A program made the translations under genes and the position numbers. Under the pieces are notes generated by a model. That model saw only the letters and a program-made list of their open reading frames with translations, did no database searches and was not told where the DNA came from. A stretch of 896 bases of DNA from NCBI RefSeq assembly GCF_003334305.1, contig NZ_QOWS01000065.1, one strand, 5' to 3'. The DNA is from Escherichia coli. GTDB lineage: Bacteria; Pseudomonadota; Gammaproteobacteria; Enterobacterales; Enterobacteriaceae. Below, piece after piece: positions 1 through 896 of the stretch (the stretch's first letter is position 1; every line of letters begins with the position of its first letter).

Positions 1-896
1 TTCGGGCGGACGCTGACTTTCCACCGGGCAGCTAAGGGTGACGTGGCGGGCGCGGTGACGGGGGTGACGGACGGCGCGGGCCGCCGTTTTCACCTGGCGC
101 TGACCACGCAGGCGCAGCGGGCGGAAGCCTTCCGTAAACAGCGCGCCACGTCTTTATCTTCCCCTGCCGGTCCCCGTTCTGCTTCCTCTTCTTCTGCTTT
201 CCCCGACACGCTGCCCGCCGGTACAGAATACGGTGCCGATAACGGTATCCGGCTGGAGGCGGTGTGGCTGACACACGACCCGGCATACCCGGATGAACAG
301 CCGACTGCGCCGCTGGCGCGCTACACGTACACGGCCAGCGGAGAACTGCGGGCGGTGTATGACCGCAGCGGAACGCAGGTGCGCGGGTTTACTTATGATG
401 CGGAGCACGCCGGGCGGATGGTGGCGCACCATTATGCGGGGAGGCCGGAGAGCTGCTACCGGTATGATGATACCGGTCGGGTGACGGAGCAGGTCAACCC
501 GGAGGGGCTGGACTACCGCTTTGAGTACGGAGAGAGCCGGGTAATCATCACGGACAGCCTGAACCGGCGGGAGGTGCTGTACACGGAAGGCGAGGGTGGC
601 CTGAAGCGGGTGGTGAAGAAGGAACATGCGGACGGGAGCATTACCCGCAGCGAGTATGATGAGGCGGGGAGGCTGAAGGCACAGACGGATGCGGCGGGGC
701 GGCGGACGGAGTACAGCCTGCATATGGCGTCGGGTGCGGTGACGGCGGTGACGGGGCCGGACGGCAGGACGGTGCGGTATGGCTATAACAGCCAGCGGCA
801 GGTGACGTCAGTGACGTACCCGGACGGGCTTCGCAGCAGCCGGGAGTATGATGAGAAGGGAAGGCTGACGGCGGAGACCTCGCGCAGCGGTGAGAC
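1..896 (+). CDS. Rhs-family YD-repeat protein, internal fragment of the conserved core (5' and 3' ends both outside the window)
   Basis: Seen in sequence: frame 1 is open across all 298 complete codons (1-894) with no stop. Translation begins FGRTLTFHRAAKGDVAGAVTGVTDGAGRRFHLALTTQAQRAEAF and ends YPDGLRSSREYDEKGRLTAETSRSGE. It contains repeated YD-repeat units (RYTYTASGELRAVYD, GFTYDAEHAGRMVAH, YRYDDTGRVTEQ, SEYDEAGRLKAQTD, VRYGYNSQRQVTSVT, REYDEKGRLTAET). Codons strongly favour G/C, especially G, at the third position (acg, gcg, cgg, ctg, gtg, gag). Established knowledge: these motifs and the conserved blocks DSLNRREVL, GLKRVVKKE and AQTDAAGRRTEY are characteristic of enterobacterial Rhs core proteins. 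No database search was run; the paralog or subfamily cannot be assigned from memory, so no gene symbol is given. Confidence 0.93.
148..207 (+). repeat. Low-complexity Ser/Pro-rich segment (TSLSSPAGPRSASSSSAFPD) encoded by a pyrimidine-rich tract, including an in-frame (tct)3 run at 187-195
   Basis: Seen in sequence: nt 151-205 are almost entirely C/T on the + strand (tctttatcttcccctgccggtccccgttctgcttcctcttcttctgctttcccc), in sharp contrast to the G-rich codons on either side. In frame 1 this gives a serine/proline-rich stretch with four consecutive Ser codons (tcc tct tct tct). Confidence 0.6.
454..495 (+). repeat. Canonical YD-repeat unit (CYRYDDTGRVTEQV)
   Basis: Frame 1 codons 152-165 match the Y-R-Y-D-x-x-G-R-(V/L) core of the YD-repeat consensus almost perfectly. 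Confidence 0.8.
646..687 (+). repeat. Canonical YD-repeat unit (RSEYDEAGRLKAQT)
   Basis: Frame 1 codons 216-229, E-Y-D-x-x-G-R-L-x-x-x-T-D motif. Its nucleotide sequence is an imperfect direct repeat of 838-879. Confidence 0.8.
838..879 (+). repeat. Canonical YD-repeat unit (SREYDEKGRLTAET)
   Basis: Frame 1 codons 280-293, E-Y-D-x-x-G-R-L motif. Shares gagtatgatgag...aggctga with 652-676. Confidence 0.8.

What the first reader, a model, noticed from the sequence alone, without database searches (positions are those of the whole stretch)
148..207. Pyrimidine-rich, Ser/Pro-rich low-complexity linker with an in-frame (TCT)3 run inside a G-rich ORF
This roughly 60-nt stretch is compositionally unlike the rest of the gene: almost pure C/T on the coding strand, against G-ending codons elsewhere. 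It encodes a flexible-looking S/P-rich segment (SLSSPAGPRSASSSSAFPD). The tcc-tct-tct-tct run is a short in-frame trinucleotide repeat that could expand or contract by slippage without breaking the frame, so this is a plausible length-variable spot between Rhs paralogs or strains. From memory, the equivalent region in E. coli Rhs cores is also Ser-rich but differs in sequence, which fits a variable linker.
Basis: partly seen in the sequence, partly recalled or inferred. Interest (0 to 1): 0.4.

Follow-up and report, generated by a model that had tools for sequence, protein, structure and literature searches.

The report
Floppy serine-rich loop in Rhs toxin shell
The pyrimidine-rich stretch is real and encodes a floppy Ser/Pro-rich surface loop in a well-known E. 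coli Rhs toxin-shell protein; the loop differs in length between Rhs gene families, but its short TCT repeat is not an active slippage hotspot, so the finding is ordinary.

Summary
Window 148-207 is 82% pyrimidine against 38% elsewhere (0 of 2000 shuffles reach it). It encodes TSLSSPAGPRSASSSSAFPD in the single open frame of an E. coli RHS element core gene of the RhsD/E subfamily.

An AlphaFold2 model (pLDDT 87.7; best PDB match Tse5) places the segment in the only low-confidence internal stretch of the 1200-residue shell. That stretch is a helix-plus-coil insertion between two conserved beta-strands just after the DUF6531 plug. Distant Rhs proteins bridge these strands with far fewer residues.

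Between Rhs subfamilies the loop varies from 30 to 51 aa between conserved anchors, always in frame. It is the only indel-bearing zone of the window. All 8 Ser codons are TCY, whereas AGY dominates elsewhere in the core (P=2e-5), and GC3 drops from 0.76 to 0.40. Both suggest the tract grew as pyrimidine simple sequence.

Active slippage is not supported. Synthetic +/-TCT alleles on two haplotypes find 0 matches in 5,426 complete genomes, against 486 and 236 for the real alleles. The only +3 allele (about 5.5% of records) inserts TCA and is one discrete inherited haplotype. A three-unit trinucleotide run is common by chance.

Verdict: an ordinary, tolerated variable loop in a known protein.

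The parts
1..896 (+). Internal part of an RHS element core ORF (frame 1, no stops). It corresponds to residues 168-465 of the 1369-aa ORF in reference locus L001.
   Evidence: Pfam DUF6531 plus RHS repeats
85..108 (+). Conserved beta-strand RFHLALTT (ORF 196-203) that precedes the loop insertion
   Evidence: AF2 secondary structure; conserved R-x-[FY]-x-L in distant Rhs
109..153 (+). Predicted alpha-helix QAQRAEAFRKQRATS (ORF 204-218). This is the first part of the lineage-specific insertion; TQAQRAE is the conserved upstream anchor within enterobacterial clade I Rhs.
148..207 (+). Pyrimidine-rich tract (82% C/T) encoding TSLSSPAGPRSASSSSAFPD, with all 8 Ser codons TCT or TCC
154..246 (+). Predicted coil (ORF 219-249) joining the helix to the next shell strand. 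It contains the conserved FPDTLP..EYG.D.G re-attachment motif at its 3' end.
163..195 (+). PAGPRSASSSS (ORF 222-232), the only internal stretch of the 1200-residue model with pLDDT below 50; predicted disordered tip of the loop
184..195 (+). TCC TCT TCT TCT run (SSSS)
   Evidence: not scored by TRF
193..201 (+). Micro-hotspot of allelic change within the clade: TCT GCT (SA), CAG GTT (QV), CTG GTT (LV) or TCT TCA GCT (SSA, the +3 allele inserted after nt 195)
247..276 (+). Conserved beta-strand IRLEAVWLTH (ORF 250-259). Homology to distant Rhs shells and to Tse5 resumes here.

Best explanation
The tract encodes the disordered Ser/Pro-rich tip of a lineage-specific loop insertion: a short helix followed by about 30 residues of coil (window nt ~109-246). 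The insertion sits between two consecutive conserved beta-strands in the first turn of the Rhs YD-repeat cocoon, immediately after the DUF6531 plug. It most likely works as a passive, structurally tolerated spacer. Because it is not part of the beta-sheet, in-frame insertions and deletions there are tolerated, and different Rhs subfamilies have fixed different lengths. The uniform TCY serine codons and the low GC3, in a gene that otherwise uses AGC and G-ending codons, indicate that the tract grew as DNA-level pyrimidine simple sequence (old slippage or small duplications) rather than by selection for serines as such. Today the three-unit TCT run is too short to be unstable, and each allele is inherited stably. 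Shown: composition, position in the model, length differences between families, absence of unit-number polymorphism. Inferred: origin by simple-sequence growth, absence of a specific function, solvent exposure.
For: Gene identity: 2,628 E. coli records match, annotated as RHS element core protein; DUF6531 plus more than 10 RHS repeats; AF2 model matches Tse5 8cp6_B at TM 0.80/0.88. Position: strand 196-203, helix 204-218, coil 219-249, strand 250-259; pLDDT below 50 only at 222-232. Insertion: the span between the two strands is 25-45 residues in most 35-48%-identical Rhs proteins, against 48-69 in enterobacterial clade I, and the window's clade is the longest. The Tse5 sequence alignment skips query 121-245, and many distant homologs align only from about 241-246. 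Variability: anchor-to-anchor length is 30-51 aa in 86 cluster representatives; highest entropy and the only gap-bearing zone of the window; DNA length classes 0, +3, -6 and -15. Simple-sequence footprint: Ser 8/8 TCY against 16/73 elsewhere, P=2e-5, GC3 0.40 against 0.76; pyrimidine fraction 0.75-0.82 in all paralogous versions, and RhsD has its own TCT TCT TCT at a different place in the loop. The principle that DNA-level simplicity points to slippage while scrambled codons point to protein-level selection is stated in PMC1524752. Stability now: 0 records for +/-TCT alleles against 486 and 236 for the true alleles. Published Rhs structures report that cores differ mainly in loop lengths (10.1101/2024.02.26.582050).
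Against: Low pLDDT may partly reflect the shallow alignment over a lineage-specific insertion rather than true disorder. I had no model coordinates, so I could not determine whether the loop faces outside or inside the cocoon. Each subfamily keeps its own loop sequence almost unchanged; for example SLSSP..PR.. is shared by the 48-51 aa versions, and the segment is not significantly more variable than its surroundings within the clade. That leaves room for some constraint or function. No internal DNA repeat that would directly document a duplication origin was found. 7 of the 11 loci fetched are annotated pseudogenes, so part of the variation may reflect relaxed constraint.
Confidence: 0.75

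Rival explanations
1. Active slippage hotspot: the TCC(TCT)3 run expands and contracts by replication slippage, giving length-variable Rhs alleles between strains.
For: A 3-nt in-frame indel lies exactly at the 3' end of the run. Four different alleles cluster within 6-9 nt at 193-201. All length differences are multiples of 3.
Against: No clean (TCT)4 or (TCT)2 allele on the window haplotype, and no (TCT)3 or (TCT)1 allele on the SSSQVF haplotype, which itself carries two TCT units, in 5,426 complete genomes; the real alleles have 486 and 236 records at 99% identity or more. The inserted codon is TCA, not TCT. All three carriers examined share the same linked substitutions, and the allele is one discrete haplotype (127 records at 99% or more, 1 at 95-99%). 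A three-unit run is common by chance and falls below the TRF threshold. From general knowledge, bacterial contingency loci use much longer tracts.
Confidence: 0.05
2. Functional subfamily-specific loop: the insertion, located in the first turn of the shell near the N-terminal plug, is a recognition or trigger element. For example it could select the cognate VgrG or adaptor, or serve as a protease-sensitive site that helps open the cocoon. Its length differences would then be adaptive.
For: Each subfamily has a distinct, internally well-conserved version. The segment is not significantly more variable than the rest within the clade. The flanking anchors TQAQRAE and FPDTLP..EYG are strongly conserved. 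An unrelated Rhs lineage (P0239) independently carries a long insertion at the same site. In Tse5 the first barrel strands line the N-terminal aperture (PMC10684867).
Against: There is no experimental or sequence evidence for a partner. The composition (S/P/G/A) and pLDDT below 50 fit a spacer. Most Rhs proteins, including the solved T6SS effectors, lack the insertion and still function. Within-clade conservation is expected anyway from the recent spread of E. coli clade I rhs genes (PMC2935791).
Confidence: 0.12
3. Nucleotide-level element: the pyrimidine tract (a purine tract on the other strand) acts as an RNA structure, an internal regulatory site, an antisense gene or a recombination signal rather than through the protein.
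For: The composition break is sharp, and GC3 is as low as in the foreign-looking C-terminal tip region (0.40 against 0.27). Antisense ORFs overlap the segment.
Against: No Rfam match at E<=1. No promoter-like or terminator-like sites. The mRNA segment folds worse than its shuffles, z=+1.99. No direct or inverted repeats. All indels preserve the sense frame. The antisense ORFs are the kind expected opposite a G3-rich gene, and nothing is annotated on that strand.
Confidence: 0.03

Closest known systems
E. coli clade I Rhs core proteins, rhsDE subfamily (RHS element core protein; RhsD of K-12/BL21; the RhsE-type locus next to pptA-yddH-nhoA)
   Same: The window is 99.8% identical to the annotated core gene of strain 13KWH46 at that locus, and 90-98% identical to more than 2,000 other E. 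coli genes. RhsD has the homologous loop with the same anchors and is also Ser-rich and pyrimidine-rich.
   Different: RhsD's loop is 5 codons shorter and differs in sequence. RhsB/C-type loops are 9 residues shorter and Gly/Thr/Glu-rich rather than Ser/Pro-rich. The K-12 placement of RhsE is from memory, not tested.
Pseudomonas aeruginosa Tse5 (PDB 8cp6) and other solved T6SS Rhs cocoons (RhsA 7q97, Rhs1 7pq5, Tse15 8uy4, S. bongori and Advenella Rhs 8qj*)
   Same: Same architecture: short PAAR-like N-terminus, DUF6531 plug, YD-repeat beta-cocoon, C-terminal aspartyl-protease plug. Foldseek TM 0.80/0.88 to Tse5.
   Different: Query residues 121-245 (125 aa) fall opposite only about 70 residues of Tse5, and the sequence alignment skips them. 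The helix plus S/P loop is therefore absent from, or much shorter in, the solved structures.
Loop-length differences between Rhs cores, as described for solved structures (bioRxiv 10.1101/2024.02.26.582050)
   Same: That paper reports that Rhs cores of 21-29% identity superpose closely and differ mainly in loop regions of different length. This loop is another example of that pattern.
   Different: The loops listed there are at other positions. This particular first-turn insertion of enterobacterial clade I Rhs is not mentioned in any paper I read.
Simple-sequence contingency loci and slippage-prone coding repeats
   Same: In-frame trinucleotide repeat with homogeneous codons. Simple sequence is a recognised source of indel polymorphism (PMC1524752).
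   Different: Only three units. No unit-number polymorphism in 5,426 genomes. The single indel allele is not a clean repeat unit and is identical by descent.

Membership tests
Rhs / YD-repeat polymorphic toxin core (T6SS-type cocoon) | N-terminal plug domain DUF6531 preceding the shell | tested here: met
   PF20148 E=1.1e-15 at ORF residues 2-75; aligns to the Tse5 plug. This lies outside the window, in reference locus L001.
Rhs / YD-repeat polymorphic toxin core (T6SS-type cocoon) | Many RHS/YD repeats forming a closed beta-cocoon | tested here: met
   10 PF05593 hits at E<=1e-3. The AF2 model consists of successive beta-hairpins, pLDDT 87.7. Foldseek E=3e-94 and TM 0.80/0.88 to Tse5.
Rhs / YD-repeat polymorphic toxin core (T6SS-type cocoon) | Core ends in the conserved DPxG...DPxGL aspartyl-protease plug, followed by a variable A+T-rich toxin tip | tested here: met
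   The ORF reads ...YYDPLQGRYITQDPIGL.... Query 1100-1208 aligns to the C-terminal plugs of Tse5 and RhsA. GC3 of the tip is 0.27 against 0.76 for the core. A downstream dsORF-h1 is annotated. Toxin activity was not tested.
Rhs / YD-repeat polymorphic toxin core (T6SS-type cocoon) | Physical link to T6SS (PAAR-like N-terminus or adjacent vgrG) | tested here: inconclusive
   A PAAR-like N-terminus MSGKPAARQGD...GVACSVCP is present but separated from the plug by a frameshift in strain 13KWH46. No vgrG lies within 8 kb; IS elements flank the gene.
Slippage-driven simple-sequence (contingency-type) locus | Repeat tract long enough to be unstable | tested here: not met
   Three TCT units only; below the TRF threshold; runs of this size occur in 25-49% of shuffles.
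Slippage-driven simple-sequence (contingency-type) locus | Unit-number polymorphism among closely related alleles | tested here: not met
   0 records at 99% identity or more for the synthetic +TCT and -TCT alleles on two haplotypes, against 486 and 236 for the real alleles.
Slippage-driven simple-sequence (contingency-type) locus | Recurrent, independent indel events at the tract | tested here: not met
   The only +3 allele inserts TCA and shares linked substitutions in L002, L004 and L005. It forms one discrete haplotype of 127 records.
Flexible Ser/Pro-rich inter-domain linker | Low-complexity S/P/G/A composition and predicted disorder | tested here: met
   SLSSPAGPRSASSSS; pLDDT below 50 at 222-232 and coil at 219-249.
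Flexible Ser/Pro-rich inter-domain linker | Connects two independently folding domains | tested here: not met
   It is flanked by strands 196-203 and 250-259 of the same shell region, which distant Rhs proteins join with a short connection. The DUF6531 plug ends about 140 residues upstream. Strand pairing could not be checked because no model coordinates were available.
Flexible Ser/Pro-rich inter-domain linker | Length and sequence variable between homologs | tested here: met
   30-51 aa between anchors; gap fraction 0.11-0.29 only in this zone.

The most novel reading that the evidence does not exclude
The clade-I-specific helix-plus-S/P-loop insertion, sitting in the first turn of the cocoon next to the N-terminal plug, could be a subfamily-specific recognition or release element. 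It might match each Rhs paralog to its own VgrG or adaptor, or act as a protease-sensitive latch that helps open the shell in the target cell. The fixed length classes of RhsABC-, RhsD- and RhsE-type loops would then be functional signatures rather than neutral drift.
Probability: 0.07. Interest if true: 0.5.

Novelty: already known. Interest (0 to 1): 0.1.

Why it matters
It matters little beyond annotation. The gene is a well-studied, RefSeq-annotated Rhs core, and variable surface loops are the expected way such cocoons differ. There are two modest practical uses. The loop's length and sequence class (41, 45, 48-49 or 50-51 aa between the TQAQRAE and GIRL anchors) is a compact marker for typing E. 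coli Rhs subfamilies. The site is also a naturally insertion-tolerant position in the Rhs shell that could be tried for tags or engineered inserts. The negative result is useful in itself: a three-unit in-frame trinucleotide run should not be flagged as a slippage hotspot without population evidence.

Tried and rejected
1. RNA element: Rfam with permissive E<=1 found nothing on either strand, and the mRNA segment folds worse than its shuffles (z=+1.99).

2. Promoter or terminator: none found.

3. Tandem or dispersed DNA repeats as direct evidence of a duplication origin: TRF reports only an unrelated 9-nt repeat at 736-754, and the repeat finder with seed 6 on 120-240 found nothing.

4. Substitution hotspot within the window's own clade: 12/20 variable columns against 112/278 elsewhere, P=0.10, not significant. 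Window residues 1-24 are more variable.

5. Active slippage: rejected.

6. Inter-domain linker: rejected in favour of an intra-shell loop insertion.

7. N-terminal autocleavage site: in Tse5 and RhsA this lies immediately before the DUF6531 plug. That is about 170 residues upstream of the window, so it is not this segment.

8. Loop orientation (inside or outside the cocoon): I could not determine this because model coordinates are not exposed.

9. A complete tally of loop lengths over all 8,699 matching places was not possible. I used a 60-row spread sample and identity-band counts instead.

Full report
**What the window is.** All 896 nt are open in frame 1. The window matches 2,628 records of complete E. 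coli genomes, annotated as 'RHS element core protein'. The best match is 99.8%, to strain 13KWH46. There the gene lies beside pptA-yddH-nhoA among IS elements and is annotated as frameshifted; the frameshift separates a PAAR-like N-terminus from the rest. In the 1369-aa ORF of that locus, window residue 1 is ORF residue 168, and the finding's segment is ORF residues 217-236. Pfam finds DUF6531 at 2-75 and RHS repeats from 277 onward. PDB sequence search finds the T6SS Rhs effectors, with Tse5 (8cp6) best at E=2e-119.

**Checking the observation.** The coordinates, the peptide and the TCC-TCT-TCT-TCT run at 184-195 are as stated.
- The 60-nt tract is 82% pyrimidine. Windows outside the region average 38% (sd 5%, maximum 50%), and none of 2000 shuffles reaches the observed value.
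- GC skew and AT skew both reverse there.
- The bias is not only a matter of amino-acid content. All 8 Ser codons are TCT or TCC, while the rest of the core uses 57 AGY and 16 TCN (P=2e-5).
- 6 of the 7 TCT codons of the ~1225-codon core lie in these 20 codons. GC3 falls from 0.76 to 0.40.
- The (TCT)3 run on its own is unremarkable. A trinucleotide run of 3 or more units appears in 25% of mononucleotide shuffles and 49% of codon shuffles, and Tandem Repeats Finder ignores it.

**Where it sits in the protein.** I built a 63-sequence alignment of diverse Rhs proteins. The resulting AlphaFold2 model of ORF residues 1-1200 has mean pLDDT 87.7 and pTM 0.81. It superposes on solved Rhs cocoons, with Tse5 at TM 0.80/0.88.
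- Around the segment the model gives strand 196-203 (RFHLALTT), helix 204-218 (QAQRAEAFRKQRATS), coil 219-249, and strand 250-259 (IRLEAVWLTH).
- Residues 222-232 (PAGPRSASSSS, window nt 163-195) are the only internal stretch of the whole model with pLDDT below 50.
- The segment is also not a linker between domains. In Rhs proteins of 35-48% identity, the span between the same two conserved strands is 25-45 residues in most sequences. In enterobacterial clade I Rhs it is 48-69 residues, and the window's clade is the longest.
- The Tse5 sequence alignment skips query 121-245. Many distant homologs align only from about 241-246.
- In Tse5 the DUF6531 plug is residues 48-124 and the barrel starts right after it (PMC10684867). 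This places the insertion in the first turn of the barrel, near the N-terminal aperture; that placement is an inference.
- An unrelated lineage (P0239) has an independent long insertion at the same site, which suggests the position tolerates insertions.

**Variation between and within families.**
- In 86 cluster representatives, the distance from TQAQRAE to GIRL ranges from 30 to 51 aa. Salmonella types are about 37. RhsB/C types are 41 (…ARQQAISGGTEPSAFPDTLP…). RhsD is 45 (…ARTSSLSSSDSSRPLSASAFPDTLP…). Intermediates are 48-49. The window's clade is 50, with one 51-aa allele.
- Window residues 41-65 have the highest column entropy (1.4-1.7 bits) and are the only gap-bearing zone (gap fraction 0.11-0.29). 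Residues 241-265 are equally variable but have no gaps.
- A 60-record spread sample of 3,704 matching E. coli records shows DNA length classes of 0, +3, -6 and -15 nt only. Among alleles at 90% identity or more, 35 of 37 are unchanged and 2 of 37 are +3.
- The paralogous loops are all pyrimidine-rich (0.75-0.82). RhsD has its own TCT TCT TCT at a different place in the loop.
- Within the window's clade the segment is not significantly more variable than the rest (12/20 against 112/278 variable columns, P=0.10).

**Testing slippage.**
- Codon-level comparison shows four alleles packed into nt 193-201: TCT GCT (SA, the window), CAG GTT (QV), CTG GTT (LV), and TCT TCA GCT (the +3 allele).
- The inserted codon is TCA, not a TCT unit. 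The three carriers examined (L002, L004, L005) share the same linked substitutions upstream.
- Searching with the +3 allele finds 127 records at 99% identity or more, 1 at 95-99%, and the rest below 95%. That is one discrete haplotype, about 5.5% of the 2,292 matching records.
- Synthetic alleles with exactly one TCT added or removed find no record at 99% or more. This holds on the window haplotype (the true allele has 486 records) and on the common SSSQVF haplotype (the true allele has 236 records).
- The best place per record is the one reported, so a variant copy anywhere in a genome would have been seen.
- Caveats: the test covers only haplotypes within about one mismatch of the two I tried, and only finished assemblies.
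- Conclusion: the run is not a currently active slippage site. The one indel is an old event inherited by descent.

**Other readings at the nucleotide level.** There is no Rfam match, no promoter-like or terminator-like site, and no direct or inverted repeat. The mRNA folds worse than its shuffles (z=+1.99). All indels preserve the sense frame. The antisense ORFs listed are of the kind expected opposite a G3-rich gene and are not annotated in any record.

**Interpretation.**
- The best-supported reading (confidence about 0.75) is a passive, disordered loop tip inside a lineage-specific insertion of the Rhs shell.
- The codon homogeneity and low GC3 suggest it was built up as DNA-level pyrimidine simple sequence. 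PMC1524752 states the principle that DNA-level simplicity points to slippage or duplication, whereas scrambled codons point to selection on the protein.
- It has since been fixed at different lengths in different subfamilies.
- This fits published structural comparisons, in which Rhs cores differ mainly in loop length (10.1101/2024.02.26.582050). It also fits the recent expansion of clade I rhs genes in E. coli (PMC2935791).
- The main rival (about 0.12) is that the loop is a subfamily-specific functional element near the plug. My data neither support it nor exclude it.
- Origin by simple-sequence growth, solvent exposure and lack of function are all inferences. No model coordinates were available to check orientation.

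**Verdict.** The feature is an ordinary variable loop in a well-known, already annotated protein family, and interest is low.

Noticed in passing
window 736-754: A perfect in-frame 9-nt tandem duplication, GCGGTGACG x2.1, encoding AVTAVT. It is the only tandem repeat TRF reports in the window, and it lies in the second high-entropy zone (window aa 241-265), which has no indels among homologs.
   Followed up: partly
window 193-201 (alleles in L006-L009 versus the window): TCT-GCT versus CTG-GTT or CAG-GTT differ at 4 of 6 adjacent bases. They can be related more simply by a +1/-1 compensated frameshift (TCT+T+CTG+C versus TCT+CTG+GT) or by a multi-nucleotide or gene-conversion event. A similar ambiguous shift occurs at 142-153 (GCC ACG TCT versus GCC/GAG TCT TCC).
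   Followed up: partly
window 579-896 (hits H28, H29): Only the 3' 318 nt of the window match, at 99.4%, an Rhs gene next to tssM in some strains. This implies a recombination or mosaic breakpoint inside the core near nt 578.
   Followed up: no
L001 1-14500; also L004, L005, L007-L010: 7 of the 11 loci fetched are annotated pseudogenes (frameshift, internal stop or truncation). In 13KWH46 two rhs cores are interrupted or flanked by IS3, IS1, ISAs1 and ISVsa5 elements. L005 carries a CAG-to-TAG stop at the codon matching window nt 139-141, just upstream of the segment.
   Followed up: partly
window 1-72 (aa 1-24): This stretch (…HRAAKGDVAGAVTGVTDG) is the most variable part of the window within the window's own clade, with up to 5 residues per column. 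TB06053, for example, reads HREAAGELAGEITRVTDG. It is more variable than the S/P segment itself.
   Followed up: no
window 154-723, minus strand: A 189-aa antisense ORF, plus an 84-aa one at 32-286, overlaps the gene. This is typical of G3-rich coding sequence; nothing is annotated on that strand in any matching record, and there is no other evidence of a gene.
   Followed up: partly
L001 7348-7532: The PAAR-like N-terminus (MSGKPAARQGD…GVACSVCP) runs into a stop. The plug sequence (…GNPVNPVLGAKVLP) continues in another frame, which locates the annotated frameshift of this reference copy between the PAAR-like region and DUF6531.
   Followed up: partly
alignment A2, protein P0239 (columns matching window nt ~85-276): A distant Rhs (about 36% identity) carries an independent insertion of similar size, with unrelated sequence (…RAAAAWQQEHERRLQALARGEALPRPPTGPGHNAQAGW…), at the same inter-strand position. 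This suggests a recurrent insertion-tolerant site in the Rhs fold.
   Followed up: no
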